DNA from: an uncultured Spirochaetota bacterium
GTDB lineage: Bacteria; Spirochaetota; Brevinematia; Brevinematales; JAOACQ01
Reading direction: 5' to 3'
DNA: 64,000 nucleotides
NCBI GenBank assembly: GCA_963783575.1
Contig: CAWAOD010000009.1
Location: 448,001-512,000 of the forward strand
Shown: one piece after another, positions 39,001-45,000 of the stretch
How positions within the stretch are numbered: the stretch's first letter is position 1
Layout of the letters: each line of letters opens with the position of its first letter
Made by a program: the position numbers

Positions 39001-42000
39001 AAATGGGATACTACATAGGACAGTGCCGGATTGCGGATGCTCTTCCGGAGATAAAAAAGAAAATGCCTGCTGCGGATAAAATCCTTATTATTTAATTTGC
39101 ATTTTTATTTTTTTCCATTTAAATTATTTTGAATGAAATTATAATAAAATAATTAATCATATATATTTATAAAATTTTCCGAGCGGAAAAGAAATTAAAA
39201 AATGAAACCCCGGCAAATACATTCATAATTAAAGAAAATCCCTCGAAAAGGTTAAAATTACTCACATCAATTTTGGGGATTTCAAATTTGGCCCATGCGA
39301 GTATGATTTAAGCATAGACGGACTAAGCATAGCTGGATTTCACCGGATTTCTCACTTTAATATAAAAATAAGGATATCATATGAAACTCAAAGAAAGTCA
39401 TTTCCGTTCCGCCGCTTTTGCAATAGCCGTCTTTCTGATTTTTTACGAGGTAATAAAAACTCAATTCGGTGTTTCCGTTGATCCGAGAATAGAAAAGATA
39501 GCAACTATCGTTCTTTTTATTATTGCGGCAACTCTGTATATATATGGGAGAACATTAAGGAAAAAAGAAGGCAATCCGGATAATAAAAACAATCAGAACG
39601 AATAAATCACTTATTATAAAAGGTTGGAATTGCTCATCTATCGGTAATTATACAGTTTCGACCACCGTTTTTTGCTTTATAAAGAAGATTGTCTGCTTTA
39701 TTTATTGAGGATTCCAGATTTTCCATAAGTAAATTGGCAACACCGATCGATATTGTTACACTAATTTCTTTATCTTTGATTTTTATCTTTTCATTTGCAA
39801 TTAGATTTCTTATTCTTTCAAAATATGTGAATGAATTTTCTTTTCTAAGATTAACGGAAATTACACAGAATTCATCACCGCCATACCTGGCCATTATATC
39901 GGATGTTCTTGAATTTGAATTCAGAATCCCGGCTACCCTTTTGATTACAATATCGCCGGTAAAGTGGCCATAAGTGTCATTAATCGTTTTAAAATTGTCA
40001 ATATCAATTATGGAGATGGTTAATTCAATATTCCCTCTTTTCGAATTTTCAAAAAGCTTAACACCAAGGTCAAAAATAGCATGACGGTTATAAAGACCGG
40101 TTAGGGAATCTTTTATTGCGATATTCCGTAATTTACTGATTGTATCTATAAATTCCAAATTCTGATTTATACGCCATTTGAATTCTTCATCTGAAAAAGG
40201 TTTATATATAAAATCATTAGCGCCTTCTTTTAAAAAATTTGTGGATATTAATGAATTTCCGTAAGCTGAAATACCAATTATTGCCAGCTTATCGATCGGG
40301 TGATCCGCGCAGAGGCAGTTTACCAATTCAAATCCATTCATTTCAGGCATATTATAATCGGTAATGACCAATTTAATATCAGGGTTTGTTTTTATTAAAT
40401 CGAGAGCTTCAACGGTAGATTCGGCCTCCAGTACTATCAAACATTGTGTTTTCAATAAACGGGAAATTAATTTTCTGGAAATAAGTGAATCGTCAATTAC
40501 CAATACTTTTGTTTTAATGTTTCGTTCGAGATAACAGATCAATTTGATCAAATGATCATATGCTCCATTCACTTTTTTTATTATATAATCAAAAATATCT
40601 TTTTTCAGAATTCTTTCCCTGATATCATCATTTAAATAGGAAGTTAAAACAATCATTGGAATTTTTTTAGCCTTTAAATAATTTATAATTTCATCTTCTA
40701 TTGTGTCCGGTAAAAACAAATCAATTATGGAAACAATAAATTCAACTTTGCTGTTTTCTAATATATTTTTTGTCTGAAAAATTTCTGCATAATATGCACT
40801 CAATACCAAGCTCATTATTGATTTTATTGATGATATCTTTAGATACATCTATTTCATTTTCAATTATTAATATCTTTTTATTTTCATTAATAATATCCAT
40901 AATTTCTCCTGAATTAACGATGCAAGAAAATCTTCAATTTTTAATCATTAATTTTATTCTAACCAGATGAATAATATAAGTCAAAAAAGAACAAAATATC
41001 TAAACCGGATAATATTTTTTTAGAACAAAACAATCTATTTCTTATGTTCTAAAAACCATACTTTGTTTTATTGAAGATCCTCAGCATTCACTTGACAAAT
41101 ATTATAGAGACATTATAATTCTATATTAGGATTTATATATTTATAAAATTATCATTCCTTTCAAATATTTTTGTCTAATAACGTATGGAGCATTATTATT
41201 ACGGCCGCCCCATTTTCAGTAAGGAGATGGATTATGAATTACTTATGTAAAATATTAATTTTAGCAATTGTTATGGCTTCCATTGGAGCCGATGCATACT
41301 GCGAGGTTATCACAAAAAGCGGCACTTTCAATGGAACTTTAGTAAATTACATAATCGTTCTCCCTCAGAATTTCAGCCCAGCCCGCACATATCCGGCAGT
41401 CCTAGCATTTGCAGGCGGTGGCCAGGACATGCCTACGATGAGAGACACCCTGAATAGGAACTGGATCGGCCAATCTCAGAAACGCAATTATCTTGTCTTT
41501 ATGCCTGAAGCCCCTAACGGTGATCTATTTTATGCAAATGGAGATCGGATTTTCCCCGCCTTTCTGGATCAACTTCTTAAGGACTACAAAATCGAAGCCC
41601 GGAAATTTCATGTGGCCGGCCGCTCCAACGGGGGATTGAGTGCCTTTCATATCGCGGCGCTATTTCCAAAATATTTTCTCTCCGTAACAGGTTTCCCGGG
41701 TTTTCTTCTGAATGCCACGGACGCCGACTTCGAAGCTTTAAAATTCTTACCGATCTTTATGTTTGCCGGGGGAAACGACTTAACTTGGCTGTCTATGGAA
41801 AAACAGCAGTACGATCAAATGAAGGCAAAGGGACTACGGGTCAGTCTGGAAATTGAGGAAGGGCAGAATCATGCAATCGAGACTCTTATGGATGACGGTT
41901 CCAAACGTCTTTTTGACCATTTCGATGAAGCGTCCAGACTTTTCAAGTAACGCTTATATCTAGTAAATTTGTGAGGTATAAATTTGTTTAAATCTAATTC

Positions 42001-45000
42001 TTCCAAAAGACAAAGGAGAAGGAAAACAATCGGTTTTATCATCAATTTTCTGCATCATCGATATCAAAGTATGATCTGCCCTGGAATCATGGATGGAGCT
42101 ATAAAGCGGGATTATAATTTAATCGCCTTCGTAGGCAAATCACTGAATTCTCCTTCAATATTTGAAACTCAGGAAAATGTGATTTATAAATTAGCGTGTG
42201 AAAACAATATTGATGGACTTTTAATAATGACCGGAGCAATCGGTAATAATATTGAATTAAACGAATTAAAGAACTTCTGCCAGCAATATAATTCCCTTCC
42301 CATTGTTTGTGTTTCTACCCCAATAGAAGGTATTCCCTCCGTTTGGGTTGACAATAAAAGTGGAATGCGAGAGCTTGTAACCCATTTTGTCAAGGATCAT
42401 AATTATAAGAGAATTGCATTTATCCGGGGGCCATCAAATAATCCTGAGGCTGAAATACGTTATAAAGTATTCACAGAAGTGCTTTCTGAAAATAATATTC
42501 CTGTCATTCCGAAATTAATTTTCGAGGGAGATTTTATTTGGTTTTCCGGGAGAGAAGGAATTAAAACCATATTGGATAAAAGAAAAGCCAAGTTTGACGC
42601 CGTACTGGCCGCTAATGATGAAATGCTGGTTGGTGTTTATCGGGAACTGATCAGCCGTGGTATCAGAATTCCTGAAGAAGTTGCTTTAGGCGGATTTGAT
42701 GATATTAACGAAACCAGGATTATAACTCCTCAAATCACCACAGTATCACAGCCGCTTTATGAAGAAGGCATAAAAGCATTAGAAATACTGGCAGATATTA
42801 TTGAAGGTAAATCCGTACCGGAATTGTTCACATTTCCATCCCGGTTAATTATCAGGCAATCCTGCGGCTGCCAACTTTTTAATTACAGTGGTAATTTGGG
42901 AAAGGATCCCGATTTATTGGCAAATAAAAAACAGGATATTATTATAAATAAAGTGCAACGTGATATTATTATAGAGCAACTAATAAAGGATGCTGAACTC
43001 CAATCAAGTACTCCCAAAGATTATAAAGAAAATCAGGATTTGATAAGGATTTATTTCAATTCTTTTATTGAAGATCTGGAAAATCGAAATAATCATAAAT
43101 TCATTGATAGTGTTTCTAAATTGACAAATAATTCTCAGGAAAATAATTTTGACTTTGAATTTTTTAAAATTCTTATTTCCAAAATTTATAAAAATGTTTC
43201 TCCTTTTTTGATAAATTCCCTTGAACTGACATCCAGAGCAAATGAGTTATTTAATGACTCTCTATCCATGCTGTTGGAGTCAATATCACGCTATAATCAA
43301 AATAGATTGGTTCAATCAAGAGATTATAACTGGGCGATGATTAATGTGACAAAAACACTCAGTACAACTTATGATCTAAAAAGTTTACGGGATGTTATTC
43401 TTAAACTTTTACCGACATTAAATATATCTTTTTGTTTCATTGCTCTTTATGAGACTTCTAATGAATCCGTATTACCAACAACTCAGTCAAGCGTATTTTT
43501 AAATTTCCAGAATGGTCATCAAAATTATGATTATCAGAAAAATCTATTATTTGATTCGCGACAGCTTATCCCTGATGAATTATTGGATGTAAAAAAAAGG
43601 TATTGTTTAGCTGTCTTTCCACTTGTAACCGAAAATGACCATTTTGGATTTATAGCCTTTAATTATGATCACAAAAGGGATCCTATTATATATGAGACTC
43701 TCCAGGGACATATTAGTGCTTCTCTGAAAAGTGCGATTTTACTGGAAACCGTTAAGAAGCAATCCGAAGACCTTTATATTCAGAAAGATGAGCAAAGTAA
43801 AAGCCTGAAAAATTTACGCGCAATTATGGGAGGATTTATTAATGCCATGTCCCTTGTGGTAGAGGCTCGTGATCCCTATACAGCCGGTCATCAGGTACGG
43901 GTGGCGAACCTGGCACGTGCAATTGCAACTGAAATGGGATTGCCCAAGGACCAAATAGAAGGTATCCGGGTTTCCGGTGTCCTGCATGATCTTGGAAAGT
44001 TATATATTCCAAGTCAAATACTTAATAAACCGGGCCGTCTGCTGGATGAAGAATTCAGCCTCATAAAGATACACCCTCAAATCGGCTATAATATTTTAAA
44101 ATCGGTTGATTTCCCCTGGCCTATTGATAAAATTGTTTTACAACATCATGAGCGTATTGACGGGTCCGGATATCCGGCTGGCTTAAAAGGAAAACAGATA
44201 TTAATTGAAGCGCAGATTATCTGTGTAGCTGACGTAGTTGAAGCAATGGCATCACATCGTCCTTATCGTCCCGCTCCTGGCATTGATAAGGCCCTGGAAG
44301 AAATATCCAGAAACAGAGGAAAGTTATATGATGAGGTCATTGTCGACTGCTGTATCAAATTATTCAAAGAAAAAGGATTCAATTTTGATGTTCCTGTAGG
44401 TTCCTTCCAGTATCCTCAAACCGCAGAAAGCTGAGTCTGGACGTTTCGGATAATAATTCGGTACAAAGATGTTAATGTGAATATTTTCGGGGTAATCCGC
44501 ATGGTTTGCGCTATTGCCCCGCATATGCTAGAAAGGAAATCTGGAATGATAATTAATATCGGCTCCATTGGCGGCAGAGTATCAACCCTGATAAACGGGA
44601 GTTACTTGGCAATGTTGGAATAAAAGTTGCGCTGATTGAGCCAGGCAATATGAAACTAATTTCAAGGAAACTGCCTTGTCCGCTTAAGGTCCTTTATATA
44701 AAAATGAATCATTGCCCTATTATCCAATCTACAAGCGTTTTTTACAAATTACGGCAAACAAAAAAAGCTCCGGTCCTGGAAAAATGATCCCATAGCAAGC
44801 TTCGAGGAATTGAACCAATTTAGATTAAAATGTATCCGAAATCATATTCAAATGTATCCGTATGTCTATTGAAATCTGATATTAAAAATCATATACTCTA
44901 TTAATCAAGGTAAGGAGATTGTTATGGATCAAATTCATGAGACCCTGAATTATTTTCAGTCTAGCATACGAAGGATTTTTCTTGAGGAAAAAGGTATAAA

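What a model noticed while it worked through the whole genome (the two positions that open the first line are those of the whole stretch)
41984..44434. Soluble ~620-residue LacI-type sugar-sensor module (HTH-less, CGC motif) wired to five kinds of output domain
Seven genes share an N-terminal LacI effector-binding domain without HTH, signal peptide or membrane helix, followed by an R-x-S-C-G-C motif and a ~300-residue conserved linker, then HD-GYP (here), GGDEF (C5:411526; split C9:421006-423329), histidine kinase (C9:189095), chemoreceptor (C4:266307) or PAS-LuxR (C5:638331, C14:60354) outputs. It is a portable cytoplasmic sugar-sensing module feeding c-di-GMP, chemotaxis, phosphorelay and transcription.
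Evidence so far: Local alignment/HMM covers residues 1-630 in six intact members; peak hydropathy 1.2-1.85, no membrane helix. 116 database relatives of the module carry HK, GGDEF/EAL, HD-GYP, SpoIIE, AraC, sigma54, STAS or MCP outputs; the CGC motif is in 112 of 116. Paper search found no description.
(Added by a program. Inside this text positions count along the whole contig: contig position 448,001 is position 1 of the stretch shown here. "Call 12" and the like, gene names such as g00115 and contig names such as C1 are that model's own, and its searches are not shown. The text may have been shortened before it was handed on; [...] marks where a part breaks off. The agent that wrote the report below was given it as the finding of a first reader that could run no searches.)

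Follow-up and report, generated by a model that had tools for sequence, protein, structure and literature searches.

The report
Soluble LacI-GAF sugar sensor with HD-GYP
This gene encodes a soluble enzyme that probably breaks down the signal molecule c-di-GMP, steered by a borrowed lac-repressor-type sugar pocket that many bacteria reuse in front of very different signalling outputs, and that carries a likely but unproven metal site made of two histidines and two cysteines.

Summary
Observation confirmed: window 41984-44434 encodes an 816-aa soluble protein, an HTH-less LacI effector domain fused to HD-GYP; six intact paralogs and one split one carry five output types. Two corrections. (1) The '300-residue linker' is two folded domains: a haem-less globin-like helical domain (best match stressosome MtR, Z 12.9; absent from some relatives) and a GAF domain with a signalling helix. 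(2) CGC is half of a four-residue motif: H134, H139, C294, C296 are all present in 258 of 259 aligned members, a probable His2Cys2 metal site. It is not module-specific: 72 of 141 sampled ordinary HTH-LacI repressors carry both halves, 66 neither. That co-occurrence is not significant after tree correction, and the geometry could not be tested. Sugar sensing rests on fold, pocket residues and context: glycoside hydrolases flank 10 of 14 Chloroflexota module loci against 2 of 14 unmatched controls; this gene itself has no sugar cluster beside it. Ligand untested. No description found in 10 paper searches, though a review notes LacI-type domains in c-di-GMP enzymes. This scan found the family before on other genomes (e1-1222765, e1-931126). 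Verdict: new variant of a known kind.

The parts
41984..44434 (+). Gene for the 816-aa soluble LacI-globin-GAF-HD-GYP protein
42017..42871 (+). LacI/GalR-type effector-binding domain without HTH (aa ~12-296)
   Evidence: Pfam PF13377/PF00532; Foldseek E 5e-20 to an ancestral LacI, 9nt4; VIA Z 28.0, rmsd 2.5, 273 aligned to LacI 4rzs
42383..42400 (+). H134-x4-H139, His half of the probable His2Cys2 metal site
   Evidence: each His in 116 of 116 and 143 of 143
42854..42871 (+). R291-Q-S-C294-G-C296, Cys half of the probable metal site, at the exit of the LacI domain
   Evidence: C294 259 of 259, C296 258 of 259
42956..43345 (+). Haem-less globin-like helical domain (aa ~325-454), optional in the family
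   Evidence: VIA Z 12.9, rmsd 3.7, 129 aligned to 3zta; Z 10.6 to 3pmc; no conserved His; missing in 10 relatives
43310..43741 (+). GAF domain (aa ~443-586; its first helix is continuous with the last helix of the globin-like part)
   Evidence: VIA Z 11.7 (3jab), 11.0 (4g3v), 10.9 (1mc0); Foldseek list led by GAF-bearing proteins; DSSP
43742..43846 (+). Signalling helix / coiled coil into the output (aa ~587-621)
   Evidence: continuous helix 568-619 in the model
43847..44335 (+). HD-GYP phosphodiesterase domain (aa 622-784) with H636, H668, D669, H697, H721, H722, D750, GYP and RPY
41171..41950 (+). Upstream alpha/beta-hydrolase (esterase) gene, 33 nt before the sensor gene; probably co-transcribed
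   Evidence: Pfam Esterase E 3e-5; LC-Est1C 3wyd E 1e-9
41092..41119 (+). Consensus sigma-70-type promoter (12 of 12) in front of the esterase-sensor pair
   Evidence: consensus match only

Best explanation
A cytoplasmic one-component c-di-GMP phosphodiesterase. Its N-terminal ~600 residues are a portable input module made from a LacI repressor core that lost its DNA-binding head and gained a C-terminal transmitter: LacI domain, His2Cys2 site, optional globin-like helical domain, GAF domain, signalling helix. Shown: the architecture, the folds (predicted), the conservation, the reuse with many outputs. Inferred: (a) an intracellular sugar or oligosaccharide, brought in by ABC transporters or released by glycosidases, closes the two LacI lobes; (b) H134, H139, C294 and C296 bind a structural metal ion, most likely Zn, that pins the exit strand to the C-terminal lobe so that lobe closure moves the globin/GAF helices as a rigid lever; (c) the GAF-terminal coiled coil re-registers a dimeric output, here a two-metal HD-GYP domain, in paralogs a kinase, cyclase, chemoreceptor or LuxR domain. 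The direction (ligand switches on or off) is unknown.
For: Whole module folds with pLDDT 92.6 and pTM 0.90, with long helices 413-459 and 568-619 bridging the domains. LacI pocket positions kept: R159 256 of 259, D212 255 of 259; D/N239 140 of 143, F/W/Y184 124 of 143. All four His/Cys in 115 of 116 and 143 of 143; H134 and at least one Cys are lost together in three divergent members, L018, L119, L120; in HTH-LacI repressors the halves co-occur, 72 both, 66 neither, 3 discordant of 141 scored. Glycoside hydrolases within 7 kb in 10 of 14 module loci, hydrolase or sugar-type ABC genes in 13 of 14, against 2 of 14 and 4 of 14 for kinase loci without the module (Fisher p 0.006 and 0.001). The C14 LuxR paralog lies directly before GH26, GH5 and a sugar ABC transporter. 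HD-GYP metal ligands align with 4mcw and 5z7c. Hydropathy above 2.0 in only 4 of 258 relatives.
Against: No ligand, metal or activity measured. The His/Cys co-occurrence in repressors rests on few events: 2-3 independent pairs on well-supported branches, 1 concordant, sign test p 1. No coordinates were available, so closeness of the four residues in space is untested. The pocket residues are general LacI-core residues, also present in PurR and CcpA (recalled), so they do not specify a sugar. The context test used mostly AraC-output members from Chloroflexota and controls matched neither for AraC nor for taxon; at a matched ORF-length cut it is 9 of 14 against 2 of 14 (p 0.018). In this genome only 1 of 7 paralogs has hydrolase neighbours among the ORFs scanned, and this gene sits beside an esterase, with a GH1-like gene 6.7 kb away (named by eye). 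The globin match is at the Z level (about 13) that helical bundles can reach by common arrangement (note).
Confidence: 0.58

Rival explanations
1. Same architecture, but the LacI pocket of this HD-GYP member reads a non-sugar metabolite (nucleoside, purine, sugar phosphate) or a partner protein, as PurR, CytR and CcpA do; sugar sensing holds only for the transcription-factor members.
For: Best NCBIfam matches of the domain are CytR, CcpA, RbsR and PurR, all far below their cut-offs; the N-lobe pocket positions are variable across the family; no sugar cluster beside this gene.
Against: Family-wide hydrolase/ABC context; top structural matches include sugar-bound LacI, CelR and RbsR.
Confidence: 0.2
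2. The His2Cys2 site is itself a sensor (Zn availability or thiol oxidation, in the manner of the CZB domain of DgcZ), alone or as a second input gating the sugar signal.
For: The four residues are more conserved than any pocket residue and sit at the hinge between sensor and transmitter by sequence; CZB domains use a His3Cys Zn site to sense Zn and hypochlorite (PMC8846402, passages).
Against: The same motif ends ordinary sugar-type HTH-LacI repressors, where nothing follows it, which suits a structural cap; members that lost it keep pocket residues and outputs (L018).
Confidence: 0.12
3. The GAF or the globin-like domain is the main input (a nucleotide in GAF, or a partner protein on the globin-like domain as in stressosome RsbR), and the LacI domain is a scaffold.
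For: GAF is present in nearly all full-length members and keeps G555 in 259 of 259 and P530 in 251 of 259; GAF domains bind cAMP or GDP in other cyclases (PMC8846402 Table 5 passage).
Against: Conserved GAF positions are hydrophobic, Gly or Pro; the globin part has no conserved His and is dispensable; the LacI pocket is the conserved polar site.
Confidence: 0.1

Closest known systems
LacI/GalR repressor effector-binding core (LacI 4rzs, CelR 5ysz, RbsR 9ny7, CcpA, PurR; Pfam PF13377/PF00532)
   Same: Fold (Z 27-28 over ~270 residues), pocket Arg/Asp/aromatic residues, terminal R-x-S motif; closer to repressors than to periplasmic sugar-binding proteins.
   Different: No HTH; signal must leave through the C-terminus; one-residue insertion H-x4-H; His2Cys2 motif. 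None of the 60 best solved LacI-type chains aligned as far as the second Cys of a CGC-repressor profile.
GAF-HD-GYP phosphodiesterases PmGH (4mcw) and V-cGAP3 (5z7c)
   Same: HD-GYP domain E 4e-35 and 2e-32 with all six core metal ligands; 4mcw also matches the GAF-helix part (Z 10.1).
   Different: Tyr632 where PmGH has the Glu that binds a third metal (alignment; role of that Glu recalled), so probably a two-metal site; LacI and globin-like domains added in front.
Non-haem globin domains of stressosome R proteins (3zta, MtR/RsbR-N; MtR name recalled) and pXO2-61 (3pmc)
   Same: Helical fold, Z 12.9 and 10.6; no haem-binding His.
   Different: 12% identity, no Pfam or NCBIfam match, internal position, optional; homology not established.
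Solute-binding-protein sensor domains in c-di-GMP enzymes (RmcA, SBP_bac_3) and Bacteroides hybrid two-component systems (recalled)
   Same: Venus-flytrap sugar/solute input wired to enzymes or to kinase-REC-AraC outputs beside glycan-use genes.
   Different: Those are periplasmic with membrane helices (PMC8846402 passage); this module is cytoplasmic, repressor-derived and signals through GAF.

Membership tests
LacI/GalR transcription factors | N-terminal LacI HTH (PF00356) | tested here: not met
   no PF00356 hit; module starts a median 13 residues from the N-terminus
LacI/GalR transcription factors | Type I binding-protein effector core | tested here: met
LacI/GalR transcription factors | Binds a sugar or metabolite effector | not testable with these tools
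   pocket residues conserved; no binding assay
Periplasmic sugar-binding proteins / membrane PBP sensors | Signal peptide or membrane helix | tested here: not met
   peak hydropathy 1.83, basic hydrophilic N-terminus; 4 of 258 relatives above 2.0
HD-GYP phosphodiesterases | HD, HHExxDGxGYP, RPY motifs and six metal ligands | tested here: met
   H636, H668, D669, H697, H721, H722, D750, GYP 729-731, RPY 759-761
HD-GYP phosphodiesterases | Hydrolyses c-di-GMP | not testable with these tools
   relatives include a cGAMP-specific enzyme (5z7c), so substrate is inferred
GAF domains | GAF fold | tested here: met
   many GAF chains at Z 9-11.7 over 128-153 residues; Foldseek; no Pfam GAF hit for this protein
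Haem globin-coupled sensors | Conserved proximal His | tested here: not met
   no His above 26% of rows at any column of 310-600 in either set
RsbR-N non-haem globins | Globin fold with detectable homology | tested here: inconclusive
   Z 12.9 to 3zta, 12% identity; helical bundles can reach this Z; no Atlas hit for aa 315-450
His2Cys2 structural zinc sites | Four ligands invariant and co-retained | tested here: met
   258 of 259; joint loss in 3 members
His2Cys2 structural zinc sites | Ligands adjacent in space with metal bound | tested here: inconclusive
   no coordinates or contacts were returned by the folding tools; phylogeny-corrected covariation not significant

The most novel reading that the evidence does not exclude
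A repressor-derived cytoplasmic sensor family in which an undescribed His2Cys2 zinc site, shared with a subset of ordinary LacI repressors, is a working switch: it couples sugar binding to a globin/GAF lever and also gates it by zinc or thiol-redox state, so that one domain gives c-di-GMP, chemotaxis, phosphorelay and transcription a joint read-out of intracellular sugar and redox. Its kinase-REC-AraC form would be the cytoplasmic counterpart of Bacteroides hybrid two-component systems in Chloroflexota.
Probability: 0.2. Interest if true: 0.8.

Novelty: new variant of a known kind. Interest (0 to 1): 0.58.

Why it matters
LacI-type domains are listed among putative sensors of c-di-GMP enzymes but, by the review read here, only SBP_bac_3 of that clan had been studied in such networks (PMC8846402, passages). 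This family gives a defined, soluble, plug-in architecture (LacI + His2Cys2 + optional globin + GAF) that is expanded to five or more copies per genome in several glycan-using spirochaetes and common in Chloroflexota, so intracellular sugar control of c-di-GMP, chemotaxis and transcription becomes directly testable. If the metal site is real it also applies to many ordinary LacI repressors that end in CGC, for which no solved example turned up. A natural sensor already grafted onto at least eight outputs is a ready template for sugar biosensors.

Tried and rejected
Complex prediction of two copies of aa 8-460 with Zn: no verdict, no contacts returned; not used as evidence. Phylogeny-corrected test of His/Cys co-occurrence: too few independent events, not significant. 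A first regex scoring of the same trait left 33 of 149 unscored and was replaced by alignment scoring. The profile search of 50%-cluster representatives used an alignment that included kinase columns, so its total counts (2.1 million hits) say nothing on family size and its best 150 lean to kinase outputs. Reads for the split paralog: no RNA holder listed; DNA contigs did not cover the 24-nt stretch where a frameshift would lie, so real split versus error stays open. Atlas: linker gave unnamed clusters at 0.91/0.90 and GAF clusters at 0.89 or lower, leads only; nothing for the globin part. PDB sequence search with the 23-residue CGC stretch found nothing. Rejected: membrane or periplasmic sensor (hydropathy); haem globin (no His); CGC as a module-specific signature (present in HTH-LacI). 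Supplements of PMC8846402 (domain census tables) could not be read and may list these architectures.
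Full report
Observation. The ORF at 41984-44434 (+) encodes 816 residues. Pfam finds a LacI-type binding domain in the first ~295 residues and an HD-GYP-type HD_5 domain at 622-784, with no HTH. A search of all ORFs of the 4.9-Mb genome with residues 1-620 gives six intact paralogs including this one and one split pair; ordinary LacI repressors match only the first ~295 residues. Their outputs are a histidine kinase, GGDEF (twice), PAS-LuxR (twice) and an MCP signalling domain. Peak hydropathy is 1.19-1.85.

Family. A database search with residues 10-600 gave 189 hits, 120 listed. 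Read by hand from the Pfam column, 33 of 120 are kinase-REC-AraC hybrids, 16 carry GGDEF, 9 HD_5, 3 SpoIIE, 3 GerE, 1 STAS, 1 sigma-54; many others are kinases or GAF/PAS arrays; EAL and MCP families were not among the 120. Source names point to Spirochaetales, Anaerolineae, Fibrobacter and Bacillota. Alignment A1 holds the query and 115 of the 120 listed hits (left out: the self hit and four partial ones).

Anatomy. AlphaFold2 on A1 gave pLDDT 92.6 and pTM 0.90 for residues 1-620. The first domain matches LacI repressor cores (Foldseek E 5e-20; Z 28.0, rmsd 2.5 over 273 residues), ahead of periplasmic binding proteins. The 'linker', folded alone (residues 297-610, pLDDT 90.8), is two domains: residues ~325-454 match the stressosome chain 3zta (Z 12.9, rmsd 3.7, 129 aligned) and other globin-fold chains (3pmc Z 10.6, phycobiliproteins), and residues ~443-586 match GAF domains (Z 11.7, 11.0, 10.9). 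The GAF call is firm; the globin call is at a Z that helical bundles can reach by arrangement alone. No His is conserved in that part, so it is not a haem globin. Helices 413-459 and 568-619 run unbroken between domains and into the output. Among 55 module-bearing sequences examined with sub-profiles, 10 have only 26-55 residues between LacI and GAF (L021, L022, L023, L120, L122, L123, P0092, P0096, P0103, P0346) against about 130-165 in the long form (these were picked partly for being partial matches, so this is no frequency). The fixed core is therefore LacI + GAF.

The motif. In A1, H134, H139 and C294 are in 116 of 116 rows and C296 in 115. In 143 further cluster representatives, all four are in 143 of 143. 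They are better conserved than the pocket Arg (256 of 259). Three divergent members lose H134 together with one or both Cys (L018, L119, L120). The motif is older than the module: of 142 HTH-LacI proteins aligned, 141 could be scored, and 72 have both the His pair and S-C-x-C, 66 neither, 3 one only. That sample was drawn with a CGC-bearing query, so the proportion is inflated, and kin share the trait: a tree needs 4-5 changes per trait, with only 2-3 independent pairs on well-supported branches, 1 concordant, sign test p 1. In a quick tree the module's LacI domains form one clade (SH-aLRT 99), with a CGC-bearing repressor, P0134, as weakly supported sister (82). Two His and two Cys kept together suggest a tetrahedral metal site, most likely Zn (inference from general knowledge); I could not measure its geometry. 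None of the 60 best solved LacI-type chains aligned as far as the second Cys of a profile of CGC repressors.

Ligand. Pocket positions typical of LacI cores are kept: D123, R159, F/W184, N/S211, D212, D/N239, Q256 (roles recalled from LacI, RbsB and PurR). For context I fetched 80 loci with an alignment of kinase-REC-AraC members; 14 carry the module, all Chloroflexota by record title. I scanned 98 of their 128 neighbouring ORFs (short, antisense and own-fragment ORFs left out): glycoside hydrolases in 10 of 14, hydrolase or sugar-type ABC genes in 13 of 14. For 14 kinase loci without the module I scanned 91 of 121 ORFs (the kinases and some operon partners left out; stricter E and length cuts): hydrolases in 2 of 14, any sugar-type gene in 4 of 14. 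Fisher p is 0.006, or 0.018 at a matched ORF length. The controls are matched neither for AraC output nor for taxon, so part of the signal may belong to AraC regulators in general. In the window's genome, the C14 LuxR paralog lies directly before GH26, GH5 and a sugar ABC transporter; the 27 neighbours scanned showed no such genes at the other five outside loci. The window gene follows an esterase gene after 33 nt, behind a 12-of-12 sigma-70 consensus.

Output. The HD-GYP domain keeps H636, H668, D669, H697, H721, H722, D750, GYP and RPY, aligned to 4mcw (E 4e-35) and 5z7c (E 2e-32). Tyr632 stands where PmGH has Glu, as in the active domain of V-cGAP3, which points to a two-metal site (role recalled). 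It is probably active; c-di-GMP as substrate is inferred.

Mechanism. Most likely an intracellular sugar closes the LacI lobes; a structural His2Cys2 metal site fixes the exit strand to the C-terminal lobe; the movement passes through the globin-like and GAF helices to a coiled coil that sets the activity of a dimeric output. Shown: architecture, conservation, modular reuse, family context. Inferred: ligand, metal, dimer, direction. Rivals are a non-sugar effector (0.2), the metal site as a redox or Zn sensor (0.12), and GAF/globin as the main input (0.1).

What is known. Ten full-text searches found no description of this module or of a His2Cys2 site in LacI proteins; the library lacks most subscription papers. 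[quoted passage not shown] PMC10443332 (passages) treats Peripla_BP_3 as a sensor domain of receptors. PMC1183210 (passages) and PMC9237108 (passages) add nothing on the module. Two earlier notes of this scan describe the same family on other genomes: e1-1222765 (LacI core with HD-GYP in a glycan cluster) and e1-931126 (CGC and two invariant His). I had reached the His2Cys2 reading before seeing them (note); they are not independent support.

Verdict. Real, widespread and apparently unnamed, but built from known parts and already visible in domain databases: a new variant of a known kind, interest 0.58.

Noticed in passing
window 44435-44680: Frameshifted remnant of a short-chain dehydrogenase gene directly after the sensor gene (recognised by eye in three-frame translation).
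   Followed up: no
G000 C9:421006-423368 (L004:6007-8369): The split paralog breaks 14 residues after CGC, at the LacI/globin boundary, with stop and TTG overlapping; either a real two-gene form or a frameshift within 24 nt. Reads did not cover the spot.
   Followed up: partly
P0134, P0205, L029, L031, L036 and others: Ordinary HTH-LacI repressors that end in R-x-S-C-G-C and carry H-L-x2-3-H-G; P0134 and P0205 have the module's longer spacing. A probable metal site in a LacI subfamily, with no solved example found.
   Followed up: partly
L133:333-5705 (G067:C149): One open frame of 1791 codons holds two complete LacI-globin-GAF modules in tandem.
   Followed up: no
L037-L057: Membrane-free LacI-module-kinase-REC-AraC hybrids in Chloroflexota beside glycosidase and ABC genes; L037 and L039 are broken into two frames.
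   Followed up: partly
window 30637-32532 and 39634-40848: Two more c-di-GMP genes nearby: a membrane protein with a probable carbohydrate-binding N-terminal domain and HD-GYP (by eye), and a REC-GGDEF cyclase divergent from the esterase-sensor pair.
   Followed up: no
window 33229-34861: A formate-tetrahydrofolate ligase-like gene (named by eye) appears split into two overlapping frames, 34493-34861 and 33229-34590 on the minus strand.
   Followed up: no
G000 C14:57314-59794 (L003:3315-5795): Membrane kinase-REC-PAS-LuxR hybrid divergent from the C14 module-LuxR paralog, sharing its PAS-LuxR tail type.
   Followed up: no
G000 C5:645341-645649: A 102-codon fragment of another module-type LacI domain 5 kb from the C5 LuxR paralog, probably a decayed copy.
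   Followed up: no
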